Of a stretch of 64,000 nucleotides of DNA, positions 4,006 to 21,638 are shown one piece after another; within the stretch, counting starts at the first letter, position 1, and the number at the start of each line of letters is the position of its first letter. Source of the DNA: a virus; the IMG/VR virus record IMGVR_UViG_3300045988_133913, positions 2,382 through 66,381 of that record. One strand, 5' to 3'. A model generated the notes under the pieces. That model was given only the letters and a program-made list of their open reading frames with translations. It had not been told where the DNA came from and searched no databases. The translations under genes were made by a program, and so were the position numbers.

Positions 4006-4006
4006 G

Positions 4007-4903
4007 ATGCCACGCTCTGACAATGACGGGATGAACTTCGACGACCTGTTCGGCAAGTGGGGCGGGAAGCCTGACAAGAACGGGAAGAAGAAAGATACGA
4101 CGCCGAAAGTTCCGGCGGATAACCCTGCGTGCAAAAACACCGGGGTCACGGATGAAGGGATAGAGCAGTCTTCCCGCTGGAAGTCCATGCTGTCTGCCGC
4201 CATCATGGCGTACAACACATGGAATAGCCTGCGCATGGCGAAGTTGCAGCGCGACCTCGCCAGAAAATATTTGCAGATGAGCAAAGACCATCGCAAGTAT
4301 TACAACGACCGCTTCAAGCCGCTGGAGAAAGACCTCACCAAAGAAGCGCTGAAGCTGAAGAAGTATGAGCGCGACAAAGAGCCGCTTTATACCGGGCAGA
4401 TGCTGGTAAGCGTGCGGGGGAAGAACGCGGGTCAGATTGACAAGGCGGTGTCCTGTACGGGGCGCTACTGCACCGGGCAGCGAGCAGCCATCATAACCGA
4501 CCAGCTCCTCAAGCAGGCGACCCAAGAGAGCCTCGCTGCGGGCATGGCGCATCGCTACACGGACAAGGAAGAAATCGTCCACAACAATCTGCGGTGGGAC
4601 AAGCGCGAACAAGTGCTGAAAATCGGGCGCGACATCCCGGCGCAGGCGTCCAGCTTTGCTCAGCTCGCCGCTGGAATTTTCGGCGACCTCGGCACGCAGG
4701 CTGGCAAGGCAGCGGAAGGCGCGATGAGTTTTATCGCCTACGAGAGCAACCGTGCGCAGACACAGTACCCACCGCGACGGGGGGATATGCAGGTGAGCAG
4801 CTACCGCTACAATCCTACACCGCTTGAGGAGTTCAAGCCGAAGCCGCCGGATGTGTACGTGAAGCCGGAAGAACCGACGCAGACCATAAAAGTGATGGGG
4901 TGA
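4007..4903 (+). CDS. virion/internal protein, tandem paralog 1
   Basis: 298 aa. The C-terminal region (AAGIFGDLGTQAGKAAEGAMSFIAYESNRAQTQY) is shared with the next gene. Confidence 0.6.
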   Translation: MPRSDNDGMNFDDLFGKWGGKPDKNGKKKDTTPKVPADNPACKNTGVTDEGIEQSSRWKSMLSAAIMAYNTWNSLRMAKLQRDLARKYLQMSKDHRKYYNDRFKPLEKDLTKEALKLKKYERDKEPLYTGQMLVSVRGKNAGQIDKAVSCTGRYCTGQRAAIITDQLLKQATQESLAAGMAHRYTDKEEIVHNNLRWDKREQVLKIGRDIPAQASSFAQLAAGIFGDLGTQAGKAAEGAMSFIAYESNRAQTQYPPRRGDMQVSSYRYNPTPLEEFKPKPPDVYVKPEEPTQTIKVMG

Positions 4904-4906
4904 TAA

Positions 4907-5830
4907 ATGAGCGGATTACCAGTCGTTGTAACCACCGGTAGGCTTGAGCGGGTAAATGACGTTTCCATCAAGGCGTTCCCTTGCCCGAAGGTAAACGACA
5001 AGGGGCTGACGGGAGCTTGGTGGTGGGCAGATAAAATCGCCATCGCGGTTGCGCTATGGGCTACCTACGAGACATGGAAGGCGGCGAAGGAAGAATACAA
5101 AATCGGCAAGGACTACTACGACCTTGCGAAAGAACAATGGGATTTCTTCCTCGAAAACTACCGCCCGCTGGAAGACCAAGAGCTGTCAGAGATATGGGCA
5201 GAGCCTCCCTACGAGCCAGATTACCCCAAATCCATCGCAGGGCATACCAACACCATAGACAAGGTTTTCGCCGCCGCAGAACGTCATAGGAGCGCCCTCA
5301 CGGATAAATATTGCGTCTGCCCCGACGTGTCGATGTTCACCAAGACCGACATCATGAAATCAACCGTGCGCGGCGACTCTGATAACTTCGGTCGTCGCTA
5401 CGCCGAGAAGCTGGCGCAGGAGAAGAACGACATCCGCTGGCAGCGACGCATATCGACCGCCAGTCGTGGACGCAACCTGCTATCCGAGAGCGCCTCCCTC
5501 GCCAGCAAGGCGGCAGGGCTGTTCGGGGACTATGCTAAGGCGATGGGCAACGTAGCATCAGGGGCAATGGCGTTTTCCGGCTACGTGAACAACCGGATGC
5601 AGACGGAATACAACCCGGTGCGCCAACGCATCAACGCCCGTGCTGATGTGCCGAATACTTACCGGGGATTCGACGCACAGGCTTACTGGGGCGACGGCAG
5701 CCGGATGCTGGAGAACACTCCGCGCGGGGGCATTTCGTGGCAGCAAGCGGAAGCCAACGCACCCTACGATGGCGCGGGTGGGGTTGCAGGTTACGACCCG
5801 ACAGGATATGCTTCCGCTTCAATGAGATAA
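4907..5830 (+). CDS. virion/internal protein, tandem paralog 2
   Basis: 307 aa. The C-terminal AAGLFGDYAKAMGNVASGAMAFSGYVNNRMQTEY aligns with the preceding gene. Confidence 0.6.
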   Translation: MSGLPVVVTTGRLERVNDVSIKAFPCPKVNDKGLTGAWWWADKIAIAVALWATYETWKAAKEEYKIGKDYYDLAKEQWDFFLENYRPLEDQELSEIWAEPPYEPDYPKSIAGHTNTIDKVFAAAERHRSALTDKYCVCPDVSMFTKTDIMKSTVRGDSDNFGRRYAEKLAQEKNDIRWQRRISTASRGRNLLSESASLASKAAGLFGDYAKAMGNVASGAMAFSGYVNNRMQTEYNPVRQRINARADVPNTYRGFDAQAYWGDGSRMLENTPRGGISWQQAEANAPYDGAGGVAGYDPTGYASASMR

Positions 5831-7177: not shown

Positions 7178-8065
7178 ATGGCACGGAGGAAGGGGAATAC
7201 CAACGAATCGCGCAACATGAGTATGGTGTTGCAAGCGTTTCAAAATGCCGGGTTGTCGCCAAACCAAGCGCGGATTCTCGCCGCCGAGGTGGGGCGGGAA
7301 AACGCATTCCAAGACCGCTACCTGTGGGGGTATCACAAAGACCCCGGAAACGGCGCGGTCAATCTGGGGATTATCTCGTGGCAAGGCACACGCGGACGGA
7401 ATCTGGAGAAACAGCTTGCGGCACAAGGGCTGATTAAGAACGGGGTGATGGAGCAGTCACAACGCGCGCTGGATGCACAAGCGCGCTTTTTGGTAAACGA
7501 GATAAAGAACGACCCTGCCTACGCCAAGACCAAAAAGCTGTTTCTGTCCAACCCGAACGTGGACTACAACACAGGCGTCCGGGTGCTGGGTAAGGACTTT
7601 ATCCGCTGGCGCATCGACGACCCGAAGTACGCTGCCAAAGGCGCGGCGTCCCGTGACGGTTTTTATCGGAAGCTAGGCGGGGTAGCCCCGCAAGATGGTG
7701 GCGTGGTGCAGACAGGAGCGTCTGCGCCCTCCGTAGCGCCGCTTATTCCGGCGTCTGGGGCGATAAACGCAGCAGCCAATACCGTGAATGACCTGATGGC
7801 ACAGAACGCTCCCCAGAGCGACCTGATGGGCAAAAACGTGCTGGCTGGCAGCGTAGGCTTCGCCGTTCCAGAAACACCTTTGCAGAACAAACTGTACGGC
7901 GAGGTCGCAGAACAAGGCTTACCGCCGCAGAAAGAATCCATCGCGGCGGTGGCGGCTGATACCATCTCGAAAACTTACGACCAGATGTTTAACCAACCTT
8001 TGGTAAAATCCTCCAGTCCTAGCATCGACGCGCTGATGCAAATCTTTAACGCTCTGGAAGTCTGA
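7178..8065 (+). CDS. putative virion-associated peptidoglycan hydrolase (lysozyme-like, GH108-like DPG motif)
   Basis: The N-terminal segment AAEVGRENAFQDRYLWGYHKDPGNGAVNLGIISW resembles the E...Y..DPGG..K.GI signature of GH108 muramidases, with looser spacing. The gene sits immediately upstream of the giant virion protein. Confidence 0.35.
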   Translation: MARRKGNTNESRNMSMVLQAFQNAGLSPNQARILAAEVGRENAFQDRYLWGYHKDPGNGAVNLGIISWQGTRGRNLEKQLAAQGLIKNGVMEQSQRALDAQARFLVNEIKNDPAYAKTKKLFLSNPNVDYNTGVRVLGKDFIRWRIDDPKYAAKGAASRDGFYRKLGGVAPQDGGVVQTGASAPSVAPLIPASGAINAAANTVNDLMAQNAPQSDLMGKNVLAGSVGFAVPETPLQNKLYGEVAEQGLPPQKESIAAVAADTISKTYDQMFNQPLVKSSSPSIDALMQIFNALEV

Positions 8066-8067
8066 TA

Positions 8068-11000
8068 ATGGCGAAGAACAATTCTCTCGAAACTCCCCTC
8101 TCCATGCCTAAACTGCCTGACCTCGACCAAGACCTGTTCGGCGCGGGCGCAGGGGCGATATTCAACCAGTCCGATGACCTGCTCAACCCGAAGGCGGTAG
8201 CGCCTCTGGGGGCGCAGCAAGGCAAACTTTCTCCGGCTGCACAGGCGCTGGCATCGGCACAGCGTGAGCAGAACGACCTGCTGAACTACGCGACTGAACA
8301 GCAGGCGAAAATCCAGCAGCAGGAAGCCCGCCAACAGGCAGCGTTTGACCGTCAGCAGGCGGCACAGCGCCGGGAAACCGACGCGGCTATCCGCCAGTAT
8401 CAGCGGGACAAAAAGGAGCGCGAGAAGGCGCTGAAAGAGAAAGCGAAGGAACAGGGCGGTGTGCTAGGCGCTGGCGCGGATGGTTCGTTTGTCCTGAAGC
8501 CGATGGTTGAAACCATCCTAGCTGATAAGAATTGGAAGGACATCAAGTCCAGCTTCCAGCGCGAGGACGAGGCGCAAGGCTGGCTGAAAGAAAAAGCCGT
8601 TCAGTTGAAGGAGCAGGGCATCCCCGAAGACCTCATCAACAACGAGCTGCGGGTGGCTGGCGCGCTGTTCAAGCAGGATACGGACGCCTACACCAAGCAG
8701 CGTTCGGAAGACCGTGCTGACCCGCTCGATGCGGTTTCATGGCTAGGTAAGGCAGGGCGCAACCTATACAAAGGCACGGTGCTGTGGCTATCCCCGGTAT
8801 GGAACAAAACCATCGGCAAAACGGGGCTTACTTTCGACACGGAGGAGTTTGTCCGCGAACAGAATGACGCGATAAATTCCATTGATTCAACGTTGTCCGA
8901 CAAGATTCACTTTGCCCAAGAGAACAACGAATACCTGACCCAGAAACGCCGGGCGCAGGGTAAGGACGGACTTGTTGCAGGATTCACAGGCGGCATCGCC
9001 GATATGTGGAAAGCGGACAATATGCTTTACACCATGCTGGACTCCGCCGCTTACATTCCTTACTCCGCCGCTGTAGGCGCGAGTGCGGGGGCGTTTGCTT
9101 CTCGCGTCGGCGCGGCTACTCGTCTTACCCCGGCGATTGAAGGTATTACCGCGCGGGTAAACGCCGCTGCGGCTGCACCGGGTGCAAGTCTCGCGACGCG
9201 AATCGGCGCTAAAGCGGCTTCTCACCTGTTATCTTCCGAGGTAGCGGGTGGTATGGCGACTACCGGGTTCTTTGCCGCCACGGACGCCGCTGGTGGCGCA
9301 TACGACGCCGTTTACAACCAAGACGAGGACACCTTCCGCCAGACCTACATCAAAGCAAACGGCGAGGAAAACTGGAACAACCTCGTGCAGTATTACGGCT
9401 CTGCGGGCAAAGCACGTGCAGCGCTCGCAGAACAGGCTGCGGTATCGGCAGGTAATTCCGCCTTCATAAACACCGCGCTGCTAGGCGCTGCCGGTTTGGA
9501 AACTACGCTGCTCAAGGCGAACAAGTTTGGGCTTCAGACGTTTGCGGGCAAGCGCTTGGCGACGGCTGGCGCTAACTCCGTGTCTGAACTCCTCGAAGAA
9601 GGCTTGACGCAATATTCACAAAACGTCGGCGCGCAGCCTGCGACTGGCGTGGATTTGCTGGAAGGCGTGCCGGAAGCAGCCGCTATCGGTTTCGTCGCAG
9701 GCGGCTCGATGGCAGGCGGTACGCAGGTGCTTGGTGCGCTAGGCAAAGGCGTAAAAAACTACGTCGCTCCAGAGTTCGATGCAGCACGGCTTGACCCTAC
9801 GCAGTACGTGCATCAGAATCAGTTGGACTACGACAGCTATCGGCAGGTGGTCGGGCGCGAGATGGACAACATCGCACGCACCGGACGCCGGGCTAAGTGG
9901 CACGAAACTGACATCGGCTCTGCGCAGCAGATGGCGTATGACACGATAATCGACGACCCGTCCAAGTGGGAATCCTTTACGCCAGACCAGCGCGCGCAGA
10001 TGCAGGAGTACCTGAAGCAAGCCTACAACATCAACACCAACCCGTATGCCCAAGTGGAGCGTCAAACGCTGACTGACATTTGGGAGAATGGCGACACGCA
10101 CGTACTGAATGCTTGGCTGCAAAGCGAGGAAAAAGGCATCGGCGAGGACATACGCAACGCCTTCCGTGTCAAGCACGGTGTCGAGTTAGAGAACGTGCCG
10201 GATGGTGTGCGCGCCTACTCTGAAGCGCTGGCTAACGCTATCGACTACCAGATTGCCGCCCCGGTACTACGCGACACGAACGAGCAATGGAAGGCGATGC
10301 GGGATTACGTCAAGACCCAAGTCGAGACTAACCCGACGCTCACCCGCGAACAGCAGAAAGGCATCGACGCCATTCTCGCTAATTACCTCGATGCAGGTCG
10401 TCGTCGCTTGACCGATGAGCAAGTCGCGGCGGCACAATCACAACCGACAGGACAACCCAATGAGCCAGCAAATACCGGCGCAGGACAAGGCGCGCCTACT
10501 GAAAATACTCAACCAGTCGCAGGAGAAAGCGGTGCAGCTCCGGCAGCAGGAGCAGGAAGCACAGGCGGAGAAACCCAAAGCGTGGGGCAGCCTGACGCTG
10601 CACCGGCAGGAGGAGTTAATCCTCAAGGCGCTGGAGTCGATAATGCACAGCAAGGAAATCAGCCCGGCGGTGGGACAGACGCTCCCGCCCAAACTGTTCA
10701 GCCTGCTGGAGGAGCAGCGCAAGCACCTGCATCTGGGGCGCAGCCGGGAGTTACAGCCCCGGTTGGAAATGCTGGTCAAACGGCTGCGGGACAAAGGGCT
10801 GCTGGACAGACCAGCGCAACCGGACAACCCGCTCAACCGATTAACCCCGGCGCAGCGCCGCAGGCAGGAAGCAGCGGAGGCGTTGGAGCTGCGACGCCAG
10901 AACGCAATCCAAATGGTGGAAGCAACCAAGCTGCTACCCAAGCGGTCGGTGTAACGGGCGCTTATAGCCCGCAGGCTGATTTACGCGATGCTAGTCATGC

Positions 11001-14000
11001 GTGGGCACAGTTATCCAAAGCGCAAAAATCAGCTCTCGCGAAAATTGGCATCAGCACCCCGGCGCAGTTGCTGGATATTCTGAAAAACGACGACACAGTC
11101 GCCGAAGCCGGGCAACGTCTGGCGCGGACTGGTCGCGTGCGCAGCATGACGATGAAGTCGGTGCAGGACGCGCTGAAAGCCGCCCGTGACTACATCACGT
11201 CGCCAGAGTGGGTGTTTAACAAGCTGACCCAAGACCAGCTCGGGCTTAGTGCCAACGAGGCAAGTATCCCCGCGGCGGTCGCAGCGCTTCAGGCAAGCGA
11301 CGAAATTACCGCACGGAAAATTAGCCAGCTCGCCAAAGGCGCGGCGGAAATCTACGGGCTGGAGGACGCCTCTAAGGAAGACAAAATCGCCTACGCAGCC
11401 AAGCTGCTGCTTGACATCGCACAGCTCGCCAAGACCTCACCACAGCTATTAGATGTGGCGATGCGGCTCAAGGGCGCGCCGGAATCGTGGTTTCAGGACG
11501 ACGTTGACAAGCTGCTGAAGAACGACATCTGGGCGACGCTCCAGTCTGCACCGGGCATTTTTGAACAAGCCGGGGTGGACTTCAGCCAGTCCCGCCCGAA
11601 CGTCACCCAGTCACAGCAGAATCTCTGGTCGGCGCGTGCGGTATTGTTCACGCTGAAGCAGAACATCAAGGCAGGCGATGCCAGAAGTAAAGCGGTTCAG
11701 GCAGGGCTGGATAAAGCCGCCAAGCGCATCACCGACATGGGCGGCGAAAAAGGACGCCTCTCGCTGCTGTTTTCGATGCTGGAAGCCGACAGCCGGGGCG
11801 AAGACCTGACAGGTTTTCTGGAAAACTACTACATCGGTTCGCGCGCTTCGGCAGATGCTATCGCGGGCGTTATCCGCGCGTATCAGGATGCGAAAACCTA
11901 CATGGCATCCCCCGACTTCCAGAACAGCCTGCGGGCGGATAACTGGCTGCGGCAGGCGGACAAGTCGGTTTACGTGCAGGCTATCCGCGATTATGTGCGC
12001 AATAATTACGCAGCATTCAACCAGATGCTGATTCAGGATGCCGAAGTGGCGTCTGGCAAGAGCGCCCGCACGCGCGTCGCTGGCACGAATTTTGAAACGC
12101 AGGCAGTAAACACCGACATTCTTGCCGACGTACTGGCTGATGTGGTGCATAACACCGCACGCCTCGGACGGGAGTATGCAGGCGAGATTGCCCGCTCCTA
12201 CGCCGGACGGGATGAAAACGGCAACCGGGTTATCAAGCCGTCTGCGGTCAAGCGTTTTCTGGAACAAGCAGATACCATCGCAGCTAACCTTCGGCAGCAG
12301 TATCTGGACGGTAAGCTGGCGCAACAATCCACCCAGCCTGAAGACGAGTCCGAGCAGTTGGTACAACAGGGCGACGACCTTTCCCGCCTGATGGAGGAGT
12401 TCAACGCCGGGCAGCAACCGGATGCCGACGCGGTCATGGGCGACCTCGACGACGCCGTTCGCGGCATTCCGGCGCAGCCGCGCAATGGTGAGAAGCAGAT
12501 TAAAAACGGTGGCTTCGACAGCCCTGAAGCGGCAGAAGACGCGCTTTCCCCGGAGTTGTTCCAGCACCCGGAAACGGTGGAAGAACTCGATACGCTGTTG
12601 CGGTCCATCGCAGAAACAACTGGGCTAGACCCGCTGCTGGTCGGCGAGTATATTGCTCGTGAGTGGTTGAGCCAGTCGGAAGAAGACTACGCAGATGCGT
12701 CAACAGACGAACTGCTGGACATGGTGTACGACGCGGCTAACGATATTTGGATTTACGTTGGAGAACAGAATGCAACACAACAAATTGCAGATACAAAACG
12801 TCTCGAAGGACCTCGCTCGATTACTGCCGACGGACGGCGCATCACGCGACAATCTCAAGACCCTACTGGGTCACTGGCAAGAGCGTTACAGCCGAACCTC
12901 TCCGGCGGCGCATACGCACAGCTAGCCCGTCCTAGCCAGCCTGCCCCGGTGCGACTTGCGATAGCACCTGTCGAGGAGATTGTTGCCGAGTTCGGCGGGC
13001 AGGAGTTCTCCCTCGCTGAGATTATCGAGAATACCGAAAACCAGCGGGGAGACCGTTCACCCACGCTAGGCGAACTCGCACCGGAAGATAACAACGCCCC
13101 GCGCCCGGTTATCGAACTGACGGTAAATGGCGTGAAGCACCGGGGCAGGCTATTCCGCTGGCGTGACCGCAAGAACGGTCGTAATCGTCGTCATGTGGTG
13201 TTTGTCCACGACGGCGACGCTTTCGGTATGCGTGGGTGGGACGATAAGTGGATAGACTTTGGTAATGCTGTTACCCGCAAGCGTGTGGACAGCATCAACC
13301 AAAACGACGGCATCCGCATCGAGGTGCTGGCAGACCAATCTGAAAATCAGGAGCAAACAAATGATAAAACCGAGAAACGTACTCAGCGAACTGGGCGCAG
13401 CGAGACCGAGGATGAAAACAATTCAGGAATCGTGGGGGACGTTCGAGATGCCGATGTCGCCGCGCGAGGAAGCGACAACACGGATGCGCGAGCTGATGAA
13501 TCCGAGCAGGACGAAGGTTCTGGGCAGTCCGATGAAAGTGAACGCGGAAGTGGAGCGGCTGAAGGACGACTAGAAACCCCTGCGCCCGTAGATGTTCCGC
13601 AGGGGCTAGACTACACCCCCGAGCAGGTAGCAGAAATTGACCCGGCGTCGCTTACGGCGGATGAGCGTGCAGCACTTAACCGCCAAGACGATACGAGCGA
13701 GTTTATTGCTAACGCCCTCTACGACATCGAGGGCGCGCTGGAAGATTTCGGTGGGGAAGATTCTGCCGCCCTGCGCAGCGGGCTTGCCAAAATGGCAGCG
13801 CTGCTGGCAGACCCTGCTGCGCCAAGACGGGCTACGCCGACGACGGTTACCGAACAAGCCGCCGGGCGCAAAGAGGTTGCCGACATTATCACCGACGAGG
13901 AGCGCGACATTCTCGACGCCTACCTCGAAGACGTCGGTAACACCGAGCAGAGCGCGGAGGAGTTTGCCGAAGAAGCCATCGCCGACAACCAGTTCGAGGA

Positions 14001-17000
14001 TAGCAGCCTGCCGAAGAAAGTCCGCGCTGTGCTGGAGCGTATCTGGAACGCGCTGCGCAACGGCATGGCGGCTGTCTCGATGGCGTTGGCGGTTCACCTC
14101 GGCTCAAGTATGGTCGTCAGCCAGCCTGCCGAAGCCGCGAACCTCACTCCGCAGGCAGGCGAGGTGGTTATGAGCAGCGCTGCCAAAGCGTCGCTAGACC
14201 ACATCATCGACACCGCCGACAACGGTGGACGCCCGTTTGTGATTGCCGACAAAAAGGCGGGCAAGCTGTACCTGATGAACGCCGAGGGCAAGGTGGTGGA
14301 CACCACTCCGGCGCTGTTTGGCAAGACGCCTTCCGACGCCGCGAAGACGGCGGGTGCTACGGGTGCGGGCAAATACGACCTGACCTACAACCGCGACACC
14401 CGTCTGCCATCCGGTTACGCGGGCAGCGTGCAGTCGTTCGACACCGGAGCAAATGGCGAGCAGTTTGCCATCCACCGTGTTATTGACGTCAAGGGGCAGA
14501 ACCGTCAGAGCCGACTGGATAGCAAGACCGTCCGCGACAACCGCATCACGCTTGGTTGTATCAACGTTCCGGCGGAGTTCTACGACGCCCACCTAGACAA
14601 CGAGCTAGGCGCGGTGCTGTACGTGTTGCCGGAAACCGCTAACTGGGGTGGCGACCTGTATGGCAAGACCCCCCGTCAGTCTGCACAGCCGACGCCACAG
14701 GCGGTTAAAATCGCAACCGAGGGTACTTCCCTTACCCCAGAGCAGTTACTGGCTGCAACGCGCTCTCAGGCGGATAATCTGATAGCGAACGTACGTGGCA
14801 ACATGGACAACGCCAGCTACCAGCCTGTGCAGGTAACACCCGAACAGTTACAGGCGGCGACGGAAGCCGGGCGGAAGGTAACGACCCAACCTGTGCAGGC
14901 GCAAGCGCCCATCCAGATTGCGGGCGTCCAGCCGTCCACGCAGACCGCCTATATCAGTCCGGTCATGGTAAACGGTGTATCCGCTAACACCCTTGTCGTG
15001 CCGTTCGAGGCGCATACCCCTGCCGAGATGCAAGCAAATGGCGTGTTCGACACACAGCCTGTAGGTAACAAGACCGAGAGTGGGGATAGCCTGTACACCA
15101 TCGCGTCGTGGCTGGCTGCCGCGTTCGCTGCGGGCAAGGTGAATAGCCGTCGCAAGAAGCGTCTGGAGAGCCGCAAGAAAGCCAACGAGGAACGGTTGGC
15201 GCGGATTGAAGCGAAGAACAATCCAGAGCTGAAGTCTGAACCGGAGGACACTTCCGTCGTTCCAGACGAAGCCGAGGTGGAAACCGCCGTCGCCGACAAC
15301 CACGACGTGCAGGCAGCCTTTGCGAAACAAGCCGGTACACACAACCCGCAGACGCCGCTGTCGCAGGCGGTCGCGCAGGCTGTGCGCCAGCAGAACGTGC
15401 TGGAGAATAAAGCCGATTGGATTCATGCATTCGCGATGCGGTATTCCAGCGATGAGGCGCAGTACCAGCAACTGCTCGCCACGATGGGCAATTTCGAGTA
15501 CAACCTCGGTGGTGTGCTGACCGACCGCTCTTACACCCAGAGTGGTGACTTCCGTGACCGCAGGCGCTGGCGCGGCGACCAGACTGATGCAAGCCGTGTG
15601 GGGATGTTGCAGGCGTTCATGCGCTTCGCAGGCGGGGCGACGGTTGCGTTCGATAATCTGTTGCACCGTGTCGGGTCTGCCGCGTTCGGACACGAAGCCG
15701 ACAGCGCCATCGCCAGCAAGATGCTCTCGCAGGTACGCGCCAAGTCGTCCGGGGCGTATGCGCAGCTACACAAGACGCTCATCCACCCACTCGTCATGCA
15801 GACCGCCACGCTTGCCAGCCAGATGCGTCGGGGTCACGGCGAGATTGAAATCGACACCGGCAGAACCGCCACGCTGAACCACATCCTCAACGAAGGCGCG
15901 GAGCAGATGTGGAAAGGTGCAGAGCTGGAAATCGCCAAGATGAAGCTGGACTTGCAGGAGGTGGAAGCGCAAATCCGTTCTACCGCTGCCGGGTCGCAGA
16001 TTCAGCAGACGTGGACGAGCAAGCAGTTGCAACTGCTGAAGGACATCGAAGCCGCCCAGACACTCCTAGACCGCCAGCGCGATATGTACTACGGGCGCGA
16101 GGAGTGGGACGGCACGACTGACCTGCCGGGTGGTTACACCGAGGCGCAGGCTAAGACCGAGCTGCAAGCGCTCAAGGATAAATACGGGGAAGACTTCGCC
16201 AAGATTGAAGCGCACAGCAAGGAGCTGGTGCAGACCATTCAGGGCATCCGCAACTTCGCCGCCGCTGCTGGGGTAGTAACCAACGACCAGCTAGCGATGT
16301 ACAACGAGATGGGCTTCAAGGAGTACGTACCGCTGTATTCGCCGCAGGAAGATGTATCCAAGACTGACGAAAGCATCAGCATCATGCAGACCTCCCGCAT
16401 GGACAGACTGCTGGAAGGTATCCCGCTGGCACAGGCGAAGTCGATGGGGCTGACCCGCGACCTCTCCCGCTTTAAGCGTAAGGGCGCAACCAGCCCGGCG
16501 GAAGACGCTTATACCAACATGAAGGTGTATGCGATGAACACCGCAGGACGTGTGGGGCAGCAGGGCTGGTTGCAGGCGGTGCAGCAGCTCTACGAAGGCA
16601 CAATCGGCAAGCCGTACTCCGTGGCGGGTAACCTCGGCGAAGAAACGCTAAAAGAGCTGAACAGCCAGCCGGAAGGCAAGCTGCCGGGGCTGATTCGTGT
16701 GCGTCCGGGTATGGAGGATTACCTGCCTGCCCACTTGCAGACCGCCATCGCAGCACCGGGTGGACGCATCCGCGCTATCCGCGCCAAGGGCTACAACAGC
16801 GCAGGCGAGCTGGTGGACTACCACTACTACTTCACGGACAAGGCAATCCAGCAAGAGGTTTACTACACCTCGGACACCAGCGAGAGCTTCATGATGCGTA
16901 TCGGGCGCAACGCCGGGACAATTACCCGGTTCGCCGCGCGGATGATGACTACCTTCCGCCCCGTCTGGAACGTGTACAACTGGGTGCGGGACAGCATCGA

Positions 17001-18762
17001 GCGGATAAGCATTATGATTGCCCGCCCGGTCAAGGACAAAAACGGTGACCTCATCAACCGCTGGACGCTTGCCAAGACCTACGCATCGCACCTCGCGCGT
17101 CTCGCTTCCAGTCTGGAGGCGCAGAACGAAATTATGCGCTACCTCTCCACAGGCGAGCTGGTGACAGAACTTCAGCGCACGCTGGATGAAGCCGTCGGGG
17201 AAGGTGCAATAAACCTGATGACGACCCAGACGGACAAGCACTCCGTGATGAGCGACCTGCGCAAGTCCGACCTTGACCGCCTGCTGGATACCACCTCAAG
17301 GATGCTTGGCACGACGGCAAACAAACTGGGTGTCGGTCAGGGCAAGGCATGGCTAGGGGATATTGCCGAATACTACGTGCAGCGCATGACGGAAGTGCCG
17401 CAGGTAACGACGGCGCTGGCGTCTTATCTGGCGTACCGCGAACTTGGCGTGAACAAGCACGAGCGCGCCAACCGGGTGCGCGACCAGTATGACCCGACCC
17501 GCACCCGCAGCGAGATTGTGCGCGGGCTATCTACCATGTACCCATTCGTGCGTTCCACCTTCTCCGGTCACTACAACCTGATGCGGACGCTGAGTGAATA
17601 CTGGAATCCCGGCGAGCGTGGCTTCACCACCCTGTACCTCGCTGGCGGCACTGCTGCCATGATGGCAATCCTTGCCCTCGCCGCAGGCGCTATCGGCGAC
17701 GACGATGACGGTGTGCCGCTGGTTGCCCGTATGCCCATCGGTACACTCATGAACGGCATCCCCATCCGCACGCCGGATGGTGGTGTCTGGAGTGCGCCTG
17801 TAGGCTTCGGGATGCCCAAGCTGATGTGGGGGACGGCGGTCAACCTTTACCGCCTCGCCTACGGCGAACAGAGTGCTTCTGACATGAGCCGCTCCATGCT
17901 AGGACTGGTGATGGACAACACCTCACCTGTGCAGGTGGCAAGCGGCGCGGCGTTCGACCGCGATGTGGGCGCGGGCGCGGCGCTTAGTTTCGCCCCGCTG
18001 CTGGCTGTGCCGTTTGTCGAGATGATGACAAACACGAAGGCATACACCGGGCAGAAAATTTACAACCGCGAAACGCCCAGAGGCGAACGTGATGCCGACC
18101 AAGGTGGGTTCAACATACCGGAAGCCTACAAGGACACCGCACAGACTCTCACCGGCATGGGTATCGACGTGCGCCCGGAAACGCTCAAGCACCTGCTGGA
18201 AACATTCAGCTATGGTCCGCTCAAAGCGATACCGACCTCCCTGCTGGCGGACAAGTCCGAGAAGTACCTCGGCAACCGCGAGACGAAAGGGGAAGCCGCA
18301 GGCGCGCTTGTTACCGCTATCGGGATGGACATGGCGTGGTCGCCACACGCGCTGGACGACGAGGCGCGGGTGTACCAGATGCTCGACGATATTTACCCTA
18401 TCTTGGGGAGATACGGCATTACCGAAATCTCGCACGACAAGAGCGAATACAAGCGCTTCGGTATCGAGGGGCGGGAGAACCGCAAGGCACGTCTGCTATA
18501 CGCCAAGATGGTCGCCGCTGGCGCACCAGAGTGGGAAGCGTCCTTTGTCCGCGACGCGGTTATGCACAAGACCTCGCGCCAGAAAGCCATCAAGGAGTTC
18601 CAAGCAGGGTCGGAAGCCTACCTGAAAGCGAAGGCTAACGGGGAGGAAAACGAACAACTGCGTGCAGCCCTTGAAAACCAATGGAATGCCATCGAAAATA
18701 GCGACCAGAATTTCCTACGCCAATACAACGAAGACGCCTATGAGATGCAAGACGACTACTAG
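8068..18762 (+). CDS. giant (3564 aa) virion-associated multidomain protein
   Basis: A single 10.7-kb uninterrupted ORF whose ATG is 2 nt after the upstream stop. It has an N-terminal coiled-coil and Gly/Ala-rich segments, a P/A/G/Q low-complexity linker, an acidic block, an internal hydrophobic segment and an L,D-transpeptidase-like segment. Its size class matches N4 gp50 or Bcep22 gp75. No T7-like RNAP motifs were recognised by eye. Confidence 0.85.
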   Translation: MAKNNSLETPLSMPKLPDLDQDLFGAGAGAIFNQSDDLLNPKAVAPLGAQQGKLSPAAQALASAQREQNDLLNYATEQQAKIQQQEARQQAAFDRQQAAQRRETDAAIRQYQRDKKEREKALKEKAKEQGGVLGAGADGSFVLKPMVETILADKNWKDIKSSFQREDEAQGWLKEKAVQLKEQGIPEDLINNELRVAGALFKQDTDAYTKQRSEDRADPLDAVSWLGKAGRNLYKGTVLWLSPVWNKTIGKTGLTFDTEEFVREQNDAINSIDSTLSDKIHFAQENNEYLTQKRRAQGKDGLVAGFTGGIADMWKADNMLYTMLDSAAYIPYSAAVGASAGAFASRVGAATRLTPAIEGITARVNAAAAAPGASLATRIGAKAASHLLSSEVAGGMATTGFFAATDAAGGAYDAVYNQDEDTFRQTYIKANGEENWNNLVQYYGSAGKARAALAEQAAVSAGNSAFINTALLGAAGLETTLLKANKFGLQTFAGKRLATAGANSVSELLEEGLTQYSQNVGAQPATGVDLLEGVPEAAAIGFVAGGSMAGGTQVLGALGKGVKNYVAPEFDAARLDPTQYVHQNQLDYDSYRQVVGREMDNIARTGRRAKWHETDIGSAQQMAYDTIIDDPSKWESFTPDQRAQMQEYLKQAYNINTNPYAQVERQTLTDIWENGDTHVLNAWLQSEEKGIGEDIRNAFRVKHGVELENVPDGVRAYSEALANAIDYQIAAPVLRDTNEQWKAMRDYVKTQVETNPTLTREQQKGIDAILANYLDAGRRRLTDEQVAAAQSQPTGQPNEPANTGAGQGAPTENTQPVAGESGAAPAAGAGSTGGETQSVGQPDAAPAGGVNPQGAGVDNAQQGNQPGGGTDAPAQTVQPAGGAAQAPASGAQPGVTAPVGNAGQTAAGQRAAGQTSATGQPAQPINPGAAPQAGSSGGVGAATPERNPNGGSNQAATQAVGVTGAYSPQADLRDASHAWAQLSKAQKSALAKIGISTPAQLLDILKNDDTVAEAGQRLARTGRVRSMTMKSVQDALKAARDYITSPEWVFNKLTQDQLGLSANEASIPAAVAALQASDEITARKISQLAKGAAEIYGLEDASKEDKIAYAAKLLLDIAQLAKTSPQLLDVAMRLKGAPESWFQDDVDKLLKNDIWATLQSAPGIFEQAGVDFSQSRPNVTQSQQNLWSARAVLFTLKQNIKAGDARSKAVQAGLDKAAKRITDMGGEKGRLSLLFSMLEADSRGEDLTGFLENYYIGSRASADAIAGVIRAYQDAKTYMASPDFQNSLRADNWLRQADKSVYVQAIRDYVRNNYAAFNQMLIQDAEVASGKSARTRVAGTNFETQAVNTDILADVLADVVHNTARLGREYAGEIARSYAGRDENGNRVIKPSAVKRFLEQADTIAANLRQQYLDGKLAQQSTQPEDESEQLVQQGDDLSRLMEEFNAGQQPDADAVMGDLDDAVRGIPAQPRNGEKQIKNGGFDSPEAAEDALSPELFQHPETVEELDTLLRSIAETTGLDPLLVGEYIAREWLSQSEEDYADASTDELLDMVYDAANDIWIYVGEQNATQQIADTKRLEGPRSITADGRRITRQSQDPTGSLARALQPNLSGGAYAQLARPSQPAPVRLAIAPVEEIVAEFGGQEFSLAEIIENTENQRGDRSPTLGELAPEDNNAPRPVIELTVNGVKHRGRLFRWRDRKNGRNRRHVVFVHDGDAFGMRGWDDKWIDFGNAVTRKRVDSINQNDGIRIEVLADQSENQEQTNDKTEKRTQRTGRSETEDENNSGIVGDVRDADVAARGSDNTDARADESEQDEGSGQSDESERGSGAAEGRLETPAPVDVPQGLDYTPEQVAEIDPASLTADERAALNRQDDTSEFIANALYDIEGALEDFGGEDSAALRSGLAKMAALLADPAAPRRATPTTVTEQAAGRKEVADIITDEERDILDAYLEDVGNTEQSAEEFAEEAIADNQFEDSSLPKKVRAVLERIWNALRNGMAAVSMALAVHLGSSMVVSQPAEAANLTPQAGEVVMSSAAKASLDHIIDTADNGGRPFVIADKKAGKLYLMNAEGKVVDTTPALFGKTPSDAAKTAGATGAGKYDLTYNRDTRLPSGYAGSVQSFDTGANGEQFAIHRVIDVKGQNRQSRLDSKTVRDNRITLGCINVPAEFYDAHLDNELGAVLYVLPETANWGGDLYGKTPRQSAQPTPQAVKIATEGTSLTPEQLLAATRSQADNLIANVRGNMDNASYQPVQVTPEQLQAATEAGRKVTTQPVQAQAPIQIAGVQPSTQTAYISPVMVNGVSANTLVVPFEAHTPAEMQANGVFDTQPVGNKTESGDSLYTIASWLAAAFAAGKVNSRRKKRLESRKKANEERLARIEAKNNPELKSEPEDTSVVPDEAEVETAVADNHDVQAAFAKQAGTHNPQTPLSQAVAQAVRQQNVLENKADWIHAFAMRYSSDEAQYQQLLATMGNFEYNLGGVLTDRSYTQSGDFRDRRRWRGDQTDASRVGMLQAFMRFAGGATVAFDNLLHRVGSAAFGHEADSAIASKMLSQVRAKSSGAYAQLHKTLIHPLVMQTATLASQMRRGHGEIEIDTGRTATLNHILNEGAEQMWKGAELEIAKMKLDLQEVEAQIRSTAAGSQIQQTWTSKQLQLLKDIEAAQTLLDRQRDMYYGREEWDGTTDLPGGYTEAQAKTELQALKDKYGEDFAKIEAHSKELVQTIQGIRNFAAAAGVVTNDQLAMYNEMGFKEYVPLYSPQEDVSKTDESISIMQTSRMDRLLEGIPLAQAKSMGLTRDLSRFKRKGATSPAEDAYTNMKVYAMNTAGRVGQQGWLQAVQQLYEGTIGKPYSVAGNLGEETLKELNSQPEGKLPGLIRVRPGMEDYLPAHLQTAIAAPGGRIRAIRAKGYNSAGELVDYHYYFTDKAIQQEVYYTSDTSESFMMRIGRNAGTITRFAARMMTTFRPVWNVYNWVRDSIERISIMIARPVKDKNGDLINRWTLAKTYASHLARLASSLEAQNEIMRYLSTGELVTELQRTLDEAVGEGAINLMTTQTDKHSVMSDLRKSDLDRLLDTTSRMLGTTANKLGVGQGKAWLGDIAEYYVQRMTEVPQVTTALASYLAYRELGVNKHERANRVRDQYDPTRTRSEIVRGLSTMYPFVRSTFSGHYNLMRTLSEYWNPGERGFTTLYLAGGTAAMMAILALAAGAIGDDDDGVPLVARMPIGTLMNGIPIRTPDGGVWSAPVGFGMPKLMWGTAVNLYRLAYGEQSASDMSRSMLGLVMDNTSPVQVASGAAFDRDVGAGAALSFAPLLAVPFVEMMTNTKAYTGQKIYNRETPRGERDADQGGFNIPEAYKDTAQTLTGMGIDVRPETLKHLLETFSYGPLKAIPTSLLADKSEKYLGNRETKGEAAGALVTAIGMDMAWSPHALDDEARVYQMLDDIYPILGRYGITEISHDKSEYKRFGIEGRENRKARLLYAKMVAAGAPEWEASFVRDAVMHKTSRQKAIKEFQAGSEAYLKAKANGEENEQLRAALENQWNAIENSDQNFLRQYNEDAYEMQDDY
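10440..10950 (+). repeat. low-complexity Pro/Ala/Gly/Gln-rich linker-coding region inside the giant gene
   Basis: Translation is TGQPNEPANTGAGQGAPTENTQPVAGESGAAPAAGAG...QAGSSGGVGAA. This produces long shadow ORFs in other frames. Confidence 0.6.
14050..14650 (+). other. internal hydrophobic segment plus L,D-transpeptidase-like (YkuD-like) domain within the giant protein
   Basis: MAAVSMALAVHLGSSMVVSQPAEAANL is a TM/signal-like stretch. It is followed by FVIADKKAGKLYLMNAEGKVV...FAIHRV...ITLGCINVP, which resembles the His/Cys catalytic motif (H...S.GCIRM) of L,D-transpeptidases. Confidence 0.4.
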
Positions 18763-21546: not shown

Positions 21547-21638
21547 TGCTCAGTTATATAAATAATTTATTGTGCAGCAGGCCATAACCGGCCCTCCGTG
21601 TTCGTAAGTTATTGATTTGTGTAGATGGGTAAAATTCC

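What the first reader, a model, noticed from the sequence alone, without database searches (positions are those of the whole stretch)
8068..18762. Giant 3564-aa virion gene of uncertain identity: N4-type vRNAP or another giant injection protein?
A single 10.7-kb ORF sits at the end of the internal-protein module. It follows several ejection-protein-like genes and a lysozyme-like gene. Its size matches N4 gp50 (virion RNA polymerase) and Bcep22 gp75. I could not recognise T7-like RNAP motifs (DxxGR, the motif B Lys/Tyr, or HDS/A in the correct spacing). The only candidate is FVHDGDAFG at about aa 1713. No N4-type RNAPII subunit genes appear in the early arm. The gene order (TerL adjacent to portal, lysis after the giant gene) is not N4-like.
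Basis: partly seen in the sequence, partly recalled or inferred. Interest (0 to 1): 0.7.

Follow-up and report, generated by a model that had tools for sequence, protein, structure and literature searches.

The report
Polymerase-less giant phage ejection protein
This 3,564-residue phage gene most likely encodes a giant protein that is packed in the capsid and shot into the bacterium at infection: it shares part of the N-terminal domain of phage N4's injected RNA polymerase and the C-terminal module of Bcep22-type 'polyvalent' proteins, but carries a cell-wall-modifying (YkuD) enzyme domain and no detectable RNA polymerase.

Summary
The ORF is real: 8068..18762 (+), 3,564 aa. It is intact and colinear in 12 related viral contigs and under purifying selection (dN/dS 0.23).

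It is not an N4-type virion RNA polymerase. No polymerase core was found by phmmer, profile search against PDB, profile-profile search or Foldseek. No ortholog has an HExxH peptidase, and there are no N4 gp51-53 homologs.

The protein is a mosaic, phage-type 'polyvalent' protein:
- aa ~400-660 is homologous to part of the N4 gp50 N-terminal domain (hhalign 98.4%, E 7e-15; phrog_2206, E 2e-10).
- aa 791-980 is a low-complexity linker.
- aa ~981-1998 is a lineage-variable centre.
- aa ~2057-2190 is a YkuD (L,D-transpeptidase-fold) domain. It holds the protein's only cysteine and lies between two hydrophobic helices with positive-inside flanks.
- aa ~2689-3385 is homologous to the C-terminus of Bcep22 gp75 and Stx-phage giants (99.6%, E 3e-24) and includes Pfam LPD38.

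Relatives carry ART, MuF_C/PBECR or HExxH inserts in the centre. About 50 unnamed metagenomic giants form this family, and no deposited phage has it.

Best reading: a capsid-packaged ejection protein that anchors in the inner membrane and presents a peptidoglycan-acting enzyme to the periplasm. It is a new variant of a known kind.

The parts
8068..18762 (+). Giant gene, 3,564 aa (stop codon included)
   Evidence: ORF list and translation. Intact orthologs of 3,564-4,081 aa in 12 IMG/VR loci. dN/dS 0.23.
8704..10014 (+). N-module, aa 213-649: homologous to N4 gp50 N-terminal domain residues 109-543. The strongest signal is aa 400-660 <-> N4 300-543.
   Evidence: hhalign profile-profile 98.4%, E 6.6e-15, 400 columns; block-shuffled controls score 14-25. 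Sub-segment tests. PHROG 2206 'virion RNA polymerase', profile positions 288-603 of 3406, E 2e-10. The module occurs only in 14 giant-protein clusters among 1.84 billion representatives.
9019..9219 (+). Ala/Gly-rich hydrophobic stretch, aa 318-384: positional counterpart of the N4 gp50 predicted membrane-spanning helices (res. 224-278)
   Evidence: Mapping through the profile alignment and hydropathy. This stretch gives no homology signal on its own, so the equivalence is positional only. Membrane insertion of the N4 NTD is reported in PMC13434306.
10438..11007 (+). Low-complexity Gly/Ala/Gln/Pro linker, aa 791-980
   Evidence: Composition: 42% A+G and 43% Q/N/S/T/P. dN/dS ~1.3. N4 gp50 has an analogous ~100-aa low-complexity linker after its NTD (PMC13434306).
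11008..14058 (+). Variable centre, aa 981-1997: replaced or unalignable between lineages; no recognisable domain in this phage
   Evidence: BLASTP maps. No Pfam hit. Relatives carry ART-PolyVal, MuF_C/PBECR and HExxH inserts here.
12955..13347 (+).
   Evidence: dN/dS 0.11. Shared with a subset of relatives, but the His and Asp are not invariant. No PDB or Pfam match.
14059..14124 (+). Hydrophobic helix 1, aa 1998-2019 (signal-peptide-like, ...SQPAEA/A); basic upstream flank
   Evidence: Kyte-Doolittle maximum 1.73; net charge +4 upstream and -2 downstream. Conserved across the family.
14236..14637 (+). YkuD (L,D-transpeptidase-fold) domain, aa ~2057-2190; His2136 (14473-14475) and Cys2164 (14557-14559), the only Cys in the protein
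   Evidence: Pfam PF03734: window 23.0 bits against a cutoff of 23.4; 12 of 12 family segments hit, best E 2.7e-9. Invariant H...[ST]xGCIN motif and one Cys in nearly every member with the domain. dN/dS 0.08. Weak PDB profile hits to Csd6 (4xzz) and Bd1075 (7o21), E 0.02.
15091..15141 (+). Hydrophobic helix 2, aa 2342-2358, followed by a strongly basic stretch (NSRRKKRLESRKK...)
   Evidence: Kyte-Doolittle 1.29; net charge -2 upstream and +7 to +8 downstream.
16132..18222 (+). C-module core, aa ~2689-3385: homologous to the C-terminal region of Bcep22 gp75 (~aa 3812-4462) and of Ralstonia, Vibrio and Stx-phage giants. It has two hydrophobic helices (aa 3185-3213, 3298-3322) and a DDDDG patch.
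   Evidence: hhalign 99.6%, E 3.2e-24, 599 columns; controls 14-22. The AF2 model (pLDDT 61) matches BFVD 'LPD38' polyvalent proteins, 27 hits at E<=1e-3, and has no PDB match.
17776..18231 (+). Pfam LPD38 (PF18857) match, aa 3237-3388
   Evidence: 49.2 bits against a cutoff of 27, E 8.9e-13 on the tiled scan. The same domain is at the C-terminus of Bcep22 gp75 (127.8 bits).
7178..8065 (+). Upstream partner gene (295 aa), weakly lysozyme-like; conserved immediately upstream of the giant gene in relatives
   Evidence: Pfam Phage_lysozyme2 21.7 bits (cutoff 28.2); phrog_6922 E 7e-32. Synteny in L010 and L011. No PDB sequence hit.
1934..3571 (+). Internal virion protein gene, homolog of Bcep22 gp67; marks the same module as in Bcep22
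   Evidence: phrog_511 E 4.9e-83. BLASTP to gp67 E 6e-44.

Best explanation
The gene encodes a capsid-packaged ejection protein of the phage 'polyvalent protein' class. It is built as beads on a string and does not contain an RNA polymerase.

Proposed mechanism:
1. The protein is packaged in the head. This is inferred from its position in the internal-virion-protein module and from mass spectrometry of C-module relatives in other phages.
2. At infection it is expelled through the tail ahead of, or together with, the DNA (inferred).
3. The N-module contains a segment homologous to the N4 gp50 N-terminal domain, which inserts into membranes and helps form the inner-membrane part of the N4 ejectosome. 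It is proposed to tether the protein at the cytoplasmic membrane. The homology is shown; the function is inferred.
4. The two hydrophobic helices at aa 1998-2019 and 2342-2358 have basic outer flanks. They form an in-out-in hairpin that places the ~320-aa loop carrying the YkuD domain in the periplasm. The topology is inferred from the sequence pattern.
5. In the periplasm the His2136/Cys2164 active site acts on peptidoglycan stem peptides. The most likely activity is hydrolytic: L,D-carboxypeptidase or endopeptidase, or cleavage of the Lpp-peptidoglycan link. This would complement the weakly lysozyme-like product of the upstream gene in opening the wall locally. The domain and catalytic residues are shown; the activity is inferred.
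6. The gp75-type C-module with LPD38 supplies a function common to this class. It has two more hydrophobic helices and is the part shared with virion-proven giants. That function is probably packaging into the capsid and/or formation of the envelope-spanning conduit (inferred).
7. The centre is a lineage-variable payload slot. Relatives place ART, PBECR/MuF_C or HExxH domains there. In this phage it holds a conserved domain of unknown function.
For: Gene and selection.

C-module:
- LPD38 above Pfam cutoff.
- hhalign to gp75-type C-termini 99.6%, E 3e-24.
- BFVD structural hits are all LPD38-type polyvalent proteins.

Relatives of that module are virion proteins or essential:
- JC1 gp69, 51 peptides by MS (PMC9144972).
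- phi24B gp47, abundant in virions and proposed as an ejection protein (bioRxiv 10.64898/2026.04.10.717836).
- PTXU04 gp25, essential by knockdown (PMC11879866).

N-module:
- hhalign to six N4-type vRNAP N-termini 98.4%, E 7e-15, with shuffled controls at 14-25.
- The signal lies outside the Ala/Gly-rich stretch.
- Independent PHROG 2206 hit confined to NTD positions.
- Membrane insertion of the N4 NTD and its linker (PMC13434306).

YkuD; lowest dN/dS in the gene, 0.08; charge-based topology.

Polyvalent character: variable centre with ART-PolyVal, MuF_C and HExxH in relatives. [quoted passage not shown]

Synteny with Bcep22: gp67 homolog, then the giant, then a lysis-like cassette.
Against: - There is no direct evidence that this protein is in virions or is ejected.
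- The window's own YkuD score is 0.4 bits below Pfam's cutoff.
- The second motif His is Leu here (TLGCIN instead of THGCIN), and the His-Cys spacing is longer than usual.
- Helix 2 is only moderately hydrophobic, and no dedicated TM predictor was available.
- The AF2 model of aa 1470-2400 failed (pLDDT 42), so the YkuD fold and the hairpin are not structurally confirmed.
- The C-module model is only moderate (pLDDT 61).
- The upstream 'lysozyme' is sub-threshold.
- No homologs of N4 gp51, gp52 or gp53 were found, so the rest of the ejectosome, if any, is of a different kind.
- Sequence methods have poor power for very divergent polymerases: the positive control N4 polymerase versus T7 RNAP scored only 33.
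Confidence: 0.72

Rival explanations
1. It is a virion RNA polymerase after all, with a polymerase core too divergent for sequence methods hidden in the centre (aa ~981-1760) or in the helical C-module. The crAss-like virion RNAP is a precedent: it was recognised only from structure.
For: Size and position resemble N4 gp50, and there is real homology to the N4 gp50 N-terminal domain. The window encodes no other RNA polymerase. The positive control shows that sequence profiles barely detect the known N4-T7 RNAP relationship. The centre could not be modelled.
Against: - The N4-type polymerase-domain profile scores at background (17-22) along the whole protein, while the N-module of the same proteins scores 133.
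- No hit to 2PO4 or T7 RNAP sequences in PDB, with the single sequence or with the ortholog profile.
- The C-module model has no RNAP match in PDB by Foldseek and matches only LPD38 proteins in BFVD.
- The centre is the least conserved part and is non-orthologous between lineages. That is not expected for an essential early enzyme.
- No acidic residue in the candidate motif is invariant.
- No HExxH module.
- Phages with gp75-type giants, such as Bcep22 and the Stx phages, use host RNAP (established knowledge).
Confidence: 0.04
2. The delivery route is the same, but the YkuD domain is a cross-linking or attaching enzyme rather than a hydrolase, or it acts as a toxin. Three versions are possible. 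It could covalently tether the ejectosome or itself to meso-DAP of peptidoglycan, as Ldts attach Lpp or OutB. It could reseal or stiffen the wall after entry. Or, like T6SS Tlde1 effectors, it could deplete tetrapeptide donors to arrest wall synthesis as a host take-over step.
For: YkuD enzymes can be transpeptidases, carboxypeptidases or endopeptidases (PMC12729407). L,D-transpeptidases attach an inner-membrane protein to peptidoglycan in Dickeya (PMC12274547, listed). T6SS effectors with this fold are periplasm-acting toxins (PMC9638812 and bioRxiv 10.1101/2020.02.18.954545). L,D-carboxypeptidase trimming alone would not open the peptidoglycan mesh (inference).
Against: The nearest solved relatives by profile, although weak (E 0.02), are the hydrolytic L,D-carboxypeptidases Csd6 and Bd1075. 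Virion-borne wall enzymes known so far are lytic (established knowledge). Pairing with a muramidase-like upstream gene suggests a glycan-plus-peptide cutting pair.
Confidence: 0.2
3. It is a DarB-like anti-restriction protein, as its nearest named relative Bcep22 gp75 is annotated. On this reading it protects incoming DNA by methylation and translocation.
For: It shares the C-terminal module and a short N-module segment with Bcep22 gp75 and has the same genomic position.
Against: The domains that justify the DarB name, namely the Eco57I-type methylase, the ResIII/Helicase_C helicase and LPD3, are present in gp75 and absent from every tile of this protein.
Confidence: 0.03
4. It is a non-ejected structural protein, for example a tape-measure-like, tail or capsid-internal scaffold protein. 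On this reading its hydrophobic and low-complexity segments are structural, and the YkuD domain acts from the virion on the outside of the wall.
For: It is a long, largely helical protein with Gly/Ala-rich segments. Weak BFVD hits to tape-measure proteins appear far down the list at E > 0.01.
Against: Significant hits are exclusively to LPD38 polyvalent proteins and to the N4 NTD. Both of those are internal, ejected or proposed-ejected proteins. The portal's nearest relatives are phages of ~54-68 kb. Podoviruses do not need a tape measure (established knowledge). The in-out-in charge pattern fits insertion into the cytoplasmic membrane.
Confidence: 0.06

Closest known systems
Bcep22 gp75 / JC1 gp69 'DarB-like' giants and Stx-phage giants (phi24B gp47, PA28 gp48): LPD38-terminated phage polyvalent proteins
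   Same: Very large single ORF at the end of the virion module, just before the lysis genes, with a homologous upstream internal virion protein (gp67). The C-terminal ~650-700 aa including LPD38 is homologous, with a matching hydrophobic helix and acidic patch. A short N-module segment is also shared (95%, E 3e-8). These relatives are virion-associated by MS.
   Different: No DarB-type methylase or helicase, no LPD3, LPD5 or LPD1, and no N-terminal SLT; a weakly lysozyme-like protein is a separate upstream gene. This protein carries a TM-flanked YkuD domain that was not found in gp75 or in any deposited phage genome by tblastn. Pairwise BLASTP to gp75 is only E 0.004.
Phage N4 gp50 virion RNA polymerase (Schitoviridae)
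   Same: Similar size. A homologous segment in the N-terminal domain (N4 res. ~109-543), followed by a long low-complexity linker. A gene annotated as a cell-wall hydrolase or 66-kDa virion protein lies directly upstream in N4-likes, paralleling the lysozyme-like gene here. A 'beads-on-a-string' ejected giant is the working model for both.
   Different: No polymerase domain, no HExxH peptidase and no detectable homology to the N4 C-terminal domain (score 31 against controls up to 29). No gp51, gp52 or gp53 homologs, and a different genome organisation.
Polyvalent proteins sensu Iyer, Burroughs, Anand, de Souza & Aravind 2017 (PMC5512222)
   Same: A multidomain giant encoded among late genes that combines unrelated domains. 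[quoted passage not shown] Family members carry ART-PolyVal, MuF_C/PBECR and HExxH modules.
   Different: YkuD or L,D-transpeptidase is not mentioned in that paper's text (0 occurrences of 'YkuD' and 'transpeptidase'). That study also reported that searches with the N4 N-terminal region recovered nothing outside N4-like phages, whereas here that region links to this family and to gp75-type proteins.
T7 gp16 (with gp14 and gp15), the classical podovirus ejectosome
   Same: Works alike in outline: an internal core protein is ejected to span the envelope, carries a peptidoglycan-cleaving domain and associates with the inner membrane (established knowledge; summarised in PMC13434306).
   Different: No sequence relationship was tested or seen. 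T7 uses a lytic transglycosylase domain, not a YkuD fold, and gp16 is about 1,300 aa.
YkuD-fold peptidoglycan enzymes used as delivered or editing hydrolases: T6SS Tlde1/Tae5, H. pylori Csd6, Bdellovibrio Bd1075, E. coli DpaA/LdtF
   Same: Same catalytic fold family and His/Cys motif. These are precedents for periplasm-acting, non-cross-linking activities.
   Different: Those are small secreted or T6SS-delivered proteins. Here the domain is embedded at aa ~2057-2190 of a 3,564-aa phage protein between two membrane helices, with a longer His-Cys spacing and Leu in place of the second motif His.

Membership tests
N4-type virion RNA polymerase | Central T7-like single-subunit RNA polymerase domain (N4 mini-vRNAP, PDB 2PO4) | tested here: not met
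   phmmer and ortholog-profile hmmsearch against all PDB sequences: no RNAP hit at E<=10. phmmer/BLASTP against N4 gp50: nothing significant in the polymerase region. hhalign of a six-member N4-type polymerase profile against all parts of the giant: scores 17-22, which is background. Foldseek of the C-module model against PDB: no RNAP. Caveat: the positive control against T7 RNAP was weak, and aa 981-1998 has no usable model.
N4-type virion RNA polymerase | HExxH zincin metallopeptidase fused C-terminal to the polymerase ('always fused', Iyer 2017) | tested here: not met
   No HExxH in the window protein or in orthologs L010, L011, L013 and L015. N4 gp50 has HELVH at residue 2228.
N4-type virion RNA polymerase | N-terminal domain of gp50 (membrane-associating, needed for injection) | tested here: met
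   hhalign 98.4%, E 6.6e-15, giant 213-649 <-> N4 109-543; shuffled controls 14-25. The signal is in aa 400-660. phrog_2206 positions 288-603, E 2e-10.
N4-type virion RNA polymerase | Stereotyped N4-like neighbourhood (gp51, gp52, gp53 ejection/plug proteins; phage RNAPII genes) | tested here: not met
   Profiles of gp51-, gp52- and gp53-like proteins against 11 window ORFs: all probabilities are 6% or lower. No polymerase-like ORF in the window. RNAPII subunits themselves were not used as queries.
Phage-type polyvalent proteins (Iyer et al. 2017) | Large polypeptide combining two or more unrelated domains, including LPD-type domains | tested here: met
   YkuD plus LPD38 plus the N4-NTD-like module in one 3,564-aa chain. 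Relatives add ART-PolyVal, MuF_C and HExxH.
Phage-type polyvalent proteins (Iyer et al. 2017) | Encoded among late/virion genes | tested here: met
   The gene lies downstream of the internal virion protein homolog and upstream of a lysis-like cassette, on the same strand as TerL, portal and MCP.
Phage-type polyvalent proteins (Iyer et al. 2017) | Delivered into the host with the DNA | not testable with these tools
   Only indirect support: C-module relatives JC1 gp69 and phi24B gp47 are in virions by MS.
Bcep22 gp75-type 'DarB-like' protein | C-terminal LPD38-containing module | tested here: met
   Pfam LPD38 49.2 bits (cutoff 27). hhalign 99.6%, E 3e-24, 599 columns.
Bcep22 gp75-type 'DarB-like' protein | DarB dyad: N6-adenine methylase plus SF2/SNF2 helicase | tested here: not met
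   Present in gp75 tiles (Eco57I, ResIII, Helicase_C). Absent from all tiles of the window protein.
YkuD / L,D-transpeptidase catalytic domain (PF03734) | Match to the family profile | tested here: inconclusive
   The window domain scores 23.0 bits against the gathering score of 23.4 (E 1.3e-4). All 12 diverse family segments match at E<=0.01, best 2.7e-9, and P0003 scores 32 bits. The family-level match is convincing, but the window copy is just under the cutoff.
YkuD / L,D-transpeptidase catalytic domain (PF03734) | Catalytic His ... [S/T]-x-G-C-[I/V]-[N/R] motif with the nucleophilic Cys | tested here: met
   H2136 and C2164 are invariant. The motif is TLGCIN here and [ST][HLMY]GCIN in relatives. 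The Cys is the sole Cys in almost every member with the domain.
YkuD / L,D-transpeptidase catalytic domain (PF03734) | Activity on peptidoglycan stem peptides | not testable with these tools
   Needs a muropeptide assay.
T7 gp14/gp15/gp16-type ejectosome | Sequence or structural homology to gp14, gp15 or gp16 | not tested
   No T7 core proteins were used as queries. No such hits appeared in the PDB or BFVD searches of the C-module.

The most novel reading that the evidence does not exclude
Three kinds of giant capsid-packaged proteins appear to be built on a common delivery chassis. These are N4-type virion RNA polymerases, Bcep22/Stx-phage 'DarB-like' polyvalent proteins and this uncultured family. 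All share an N4-NTD-like segment, here followed, as in N4 gp50, by a flexible linker, and the cargo behind it is exchangeable: a polymerase, a methylase-helicase, or a periplasm-facing YkuD enzyme. In this family the cargo would be the first L,D-transpeptidase-fold enzyme found in a phage ejectosome. It could act unconventionally, either by cutting the Lpp-peptidoglycan tether or by covalently stapling the conduit to the wall.
Probability: 0.3. Interest if true: 0.75.

Novelty: new variant of a known kind. Interest (0 to 1): 0.55.

Why it matters
If correct, it has four consequences.

1. The N-terminal domain of the N4 virion polymerase, recently shown to insert into membranes, is not specific to polymerase-carrying phages. 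Part of it is shared by unrelated podovirus lineages. That gives a handle for recognising ejected giants in metagenomes and for asking how megadalton proteins cross the envelope.

2. It adds an L,D-transpeptidase-fold enzyme to the repertoire of virion-borne cell-wall enzymes. The sequence-derived topology (periplasmic loop between two membrane helices) makes a directly testable prediction.

3. It corrects the likely annotation trap: 'virion RNA polymerase' through the PHROG hit, or 'DarB-like antirestriction protein' through gp75.

4. It defines a family of about 50 unnamed 2.5-4.3-kaa proteins from uncultured phages, here probably of the oral bacterium Cardiobacterium.

Tried and rejected
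- The full-length search of the 5.8-billion-protein database timed out, so it was repeated in pieces.
- The N-terminal 790 aa gave no hit in the word-indexed search. The exhaustive HMMER search was needed.
- Megablast against phages found nothing. tblastn of aa 1-1000 found nothing. tblastn of aa 2001-3564 gave one weak hit, to Pasteurella phage Pmp11.
- Whole-protein Pfam and PHROG scans missed LPD38 and the vRNAP-NTD hit. Only tiling recovered them (versus 14, 102).
- The AF2 model of aa 1470-2400 was unusable (pLDDT 42), so neither the YkuD hairpin nor the 'FVHDGDAFG' block has a fold assignment.
- Foldseek of the C-module against PDB gave nothing.
- Pfam on the variable centres of six relatives and of the window gave nothing.
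- The PDB profile search of the central block gave nothing.
- Both genome-contig scans found no prophage copy in species-representative genomes.
- N4 gp51, gp52 and gp53 profiles against the upstream ORFs gave nothing.
- The C-module against the N4 C-terminal domain was not above controls.
- PDB sequence searches for the upstream lysozyme-like protein and the downstream endolysin-like protein gave nothing.
- Considered and rejected: DarB-like function (domains absent), a chance ORF, and a tape measure protein.

Full report
OBSERVATION. The window contains one ATG-initiated ORF at 8068..18762 (+) encoding 3,564 aa. It starts two bases after the stop of the upstream gene. The N-terminal residues are invariant in orthologs. 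Twelve IMG/VR contigs, mostly ~66 kb, carry relatives at ~99%, 75% and 58% identity. Where the locus is complete, the ORF is intact at 3,564-4,081 aa and colinear. NG86 analysis against the 75% relative gives dN/dS 0.23 overall. The strongest constraint falls on the TM+YkuD segment (0.08), the central conserved block (0.11) and the LPD38 region (0.14). The low-complexity linker shows none (about 1.3). A 99% relative differs by 238 synonymous and 63 nonsynonymous changes. The gene is therefore real and expressed as one protein. A 98%-identical fragment is deposited from a Cardiobacterium sp. MAG, and the window's G+C of 55-61% around the gene is compatible with that host. No prophage copy was found in species-representative genomes.

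CONTEXT. The upstream gene 1934..3571 matches PHROG 511 'internal virion protein' (E 5e-83) and Bcep22 gp67 (E 6e-44). Genes 4007..4903 and 4907..5830 are tandem paralogs. Gene 7178..8065 is weakly lysozyme-like (Pfam Phage_lysozyme2 21.7 bits against 28.2; phrog_6922 E 7e-32; no PDB hit) and is conserved directly upstream of the giant gene in relatives. Downstream lie holin-like multi-TM ORFs, an NlpC/P60-like ORF, spanin-like ORFs and a strong bidirectional terminator. The order 'gp67 homolog ... giant ... lysis' is that of Bcep22. Elsewhere the window encodes a primase/helicase, a helicase, a family-A DNA polymerase, TerL, portal and MCP. Nothing resembles an RNA polymerase. The portal is at most 26% identical to any deposited phage.

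IS IT AN N4-TYPE vRNAP? Four defining features were tested.
(i) Polymerase core: not found.
- phmmer of the protein and an hmmsearch profile of six orthologs against all PDB sequences, which include N4 mini-vRNAP and T7 RNAP, gave no RNAP hit at E<=10.
- Direct comparison with N4 gp50 gave nothing in the polymerase region.
- A profile of six N4-type polymerase domains scored 17-22, which is background, against every 900-aa slice of the ortholog alignment.
- The AF2 model of the C-terminal 1,164 aa has no PDB match (best E 0.68).
(ii) The HExxH metallopeptidase, which according to Iyer et al. 2017 is always fused to N4-type vRNAPs, is absent from the protein and its close orthologs.
(iii) N4 gp51, gp52 and gp53 homologs are absent.
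It therefore has no invariant acidic residue.

There is a caveat. My positive control, the N4-type polymerase profile against T7 RNAP, scored only 33, so sequence methods cannot exclude a very divergent polymerase. In addition, aa 1470-2400 could not be modelled (pLDDT 42). Against that possibility, the only unassigned stretch large enough, aa ~981-1760, is the least conserved part and is non-orthologous between lineages. That would be odd for an essential early enzyme.

WHAT IT IS. Tiling revealed what whole-protein scans missed.

(a) C-module. Pfam LPD38 matches aa 3237-3388 at 49.2 bits (cutoff 27). Bcep22 gp75 ends with the same domain (127.8 bits), preceded by SLT, an Eco57I-type methylase, an SF2 helicase and LPD3. 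Profile-profile comparison extends the homology to ~600-700 columns: giant ~2689-3385 against gp75 ~3812-4462, 99.6%, E 3e-24, with controls at 14-22. The aligned region includes a matching hydrophobic helix followed by an acidic patch. The AF2 model (pLDDT 61, mostly helical) matches 27 BFVD viral proteins at E<=1e-3. The named ones are all 'large polyvalent protein associated domain (38)' proteins, including those of Ralstonia phage Alix and E. coli phage PTXU04.

(b) YkuD. Pfam YkuD matches aa 2057-2169. The window copy scores 23.0 bits against a cutoff of 23.4, and all 12 diverse family segments match, the best at 2.7e-9. His2136 and Cys2164 are invariant within H...[ST]xGCIN. Cys2164 is the only cysteine in the protein, and nearly every family member that has the domain has just one cysteine. 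The nearest solved relatives by profile are weak (E 0.02). They are Csd6 (4xzz) and Bd1075 (7o21), both L,D-carboxypeptidases.

(c) Topology. The YkuD domain lies on a ~320-aa loop between hydrophobic helices at aa 1998-2019 and aa 2342-2358. Helix 1 has net charge +4 upstream and -2 downstream. Helix 2 has -2 upstream and +7 to +8 downstream. By the positive-inside rule this is an in-out-in hairpin with YkuD in the periplasm.

(d) N-module. A 20-member profile of the first 820 aa aligns to six N4-type vRNAP N-termini at 98.4%, E 6.6e-15 (giant 213-649 against N4 109-543). Block-shuffled controls score 14-25. The signal resides in aa 400-660 against N4 300-543 (97.8%, E 1e-12), and two sub-segments score independently. 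The Ala/Gly-rich stretch at 318-400 gives no signal on its own. The link is therefore not compositional, and the match of that stretch to N4's predicted membrane helices (res. 224-278) is positional only. Independently, aa ~423-764 hits PHROG 2206 'virion RNA polymerase' at E 2e-10, confined to profile positions 288-603 of 3406. gp75-type proteins share a shorter piece (95.1%, E 3e-8), and the N4 NTD aligns to gp75-type N-parts at 97.3%. Outside those groups the module is exclusive to this family: 14 cluster representatives among 1.84 billion, all giants, always at aa ~130-790.

(e) Linker. A 190-aa low-complexity linker (aa 791-980) follows the N-module. N4 gp50 has a similar ~100-aa linker after its NTD.

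(f) Centre. The region aa ~981-1998 is variable. Relatives carry ART-PolyVal (P0003), MuF_C/PBECR at 47.7 bits followed by HEFAH (P0050), and other HExxH inserts (P0041, P0048, P0049). The window's own centre has no recognisable domain.

HOW IT MOST LIKELY WORKS. The following are shown: the gene, the module homologies, the catalytic motif, and the charge and hydropathy pattern. The rest is inferred. The N4 NTD inserts into nanodiscs. It is proposed to form the inner-membrane complex together with gp51, while the rest of gp50, arranged as 'beads on a string', passes the ~35 A channel (PMC13434306; PMC13492108). C-module relatives are virion proteins (JC1 gp69 with 51 peptides; phi24B gp47) and one is essential (PTXU04 gp25). 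I therefore propose a capsid-packaged ejection protein with these properties:
- It is tethered at the inner membrane through its N-module.
- It loops its YkuD domain into the periplasm, where the domain acts on stem peptides. A hydrolytic activity is most likely, complementing the upstream muramidase-like protein.
- It uses the gp75-type C-module for packaging and/or conduit formation.
- Its centre is a lineage-specific payload slot.
The authors of PMC13434306 note that N4 ejection proteins lack a wall-degrading activity. This family appears to have built one in.

COMPARISON AND NOVELTY. The protein qualifies as a phage-type polyvalent protein (PMC5512222). It shares its C-module with Bcep22 gp75 but fails the DarB criterion, and it fails three of four N4-vRNAP criteria. 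Two points appear to be new relative to the literature I could read. First, a YkuD fold in a phage virion or polyvalent protein: the term occurs 0 times in Iyer 2017, a 2025 LDT review mentions no phage-borne YkuD domain, and no deposited phage matched by tblastn. Second, the N4-NTD link to non-polymerase giants: Iyer et al. reported that the N4 N-terminal region recovered nothing outside N4-like phages, and the 2026 N4 paper does not mention polyvalent or DarB-type proteins. I rate the finding as a new variant of a known kind, of moderate interest.

Noticed in passing
window 10438-11007 (aa 791-980 of the giant): Against the 75% relative, the low-complexity linker has much lower synonymous divergence (pS 0.20) than the rest of the gene (0.5-0.78), with dN/dS ~1.3. 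Possible causes are recent recombination or gene conversion, nucleotide-level constraint, or an alignment artefact in repetitive sequence.
   Followed up: no
window 4007-4903 and 4907-5830: These are tandem paralogous genes (26% identity, E 2e-27). Both match phrog_37635 (unknown function), inside the internal-protein module. The second weakly resembles Bcep22 gp70.
   Followed up: partly
window 19243-19587 and 19584-19907: Two small, overlapping Cys-rich ORFs lie directly after the giant gene, with similar C-terminal ends (...CEKGDCP and ...CQMECCP). The second hits phrog_6427 (unknown function). Their function is unknown.
   Followed up: no
window 19838-21926, terminator 21953-21984: This is a lysis-like cassette. 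It has two multi-TM holin-like ORFs and an N-terminal-TM coiled-coil ORF (i-spanin-like). It also has a 174-aa ORF with a WCGGF...GGHVGFV NlpC/P60/CHAP-like motif (no PDB sequence hit) and a lipobox (LLTAC) ORF that is o-spanin-like. A 14-bp-stem bidirectional terminator then separates it from the convergently transcribed (minus-strand) replication arm.
   Followed up: partly
proteins P0041, P0048, P0049, P0050 (family members from metagenomes): Their variable centres contain HExxH motifs. P0050 also has a MuF_C/PBECR domain at 47.7 bits. P0051 (4,274 aa) has long coiled-coil inserts and a second Cys. The payload slot is evidently highly plastic.
   Followed up: partly
L011-L014 giant orthologs (insert at aa ~958-1155) and P0053 (aa ~990-1130): A shared insert carries the motif 'LPFYRSTG.GGK.DV...KWYP.FG'. 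It is absent from the window protein and has no Pfam match.
   Followed up: partly
L015 (ENA scaffold, 16,258 bp), 11-664, 1463-1753 and 7779-13733: The lysozyme-like gene homolog lies ~7 kb upstream of the called 1,984-aa protein P0003 (ART-PolyVal + YkuD + LPD38). This suggests the giant gene there is split by frameshifts or miscalled, so P0003 is probably a C-terminal fragment.
   Followed up: no
L017-L021 (N4-like phages), gene directly upstream of vRNAP: In all five N4-like loci fetched, a ~650-820-aa virion protein gene directly precedes the vRNAP gene. It is the N4 gp51 position, and R7L gp67 is annotated 'cell wall hydrolase'. This parallels the lysozyme-like gene preceding the giant here, although no sequence homology was detected.
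   Followed up: partly
N4 gp50 ~aa 2224-2346 vs Bcep22 gp75 ~aa 3548-3648: There is a weak but above-control profile match (score 40 against controls of 23 or lower). It falls between the N4 HExxH peptidase region and a region of gp75 with no Pfam assignment, hinting at a cryptic metallopeptidase in gp75-type proteins.
   Followed up: no
window 22280-25330 (-): A 1,016-aa primase/helicase-type protein (phrog_25314 E 7e-112, with primase/helicase PHROGs) heads the replication arm. The early arm contains no ORF resembling a phage RNA polymerase.
   Followed up: partly
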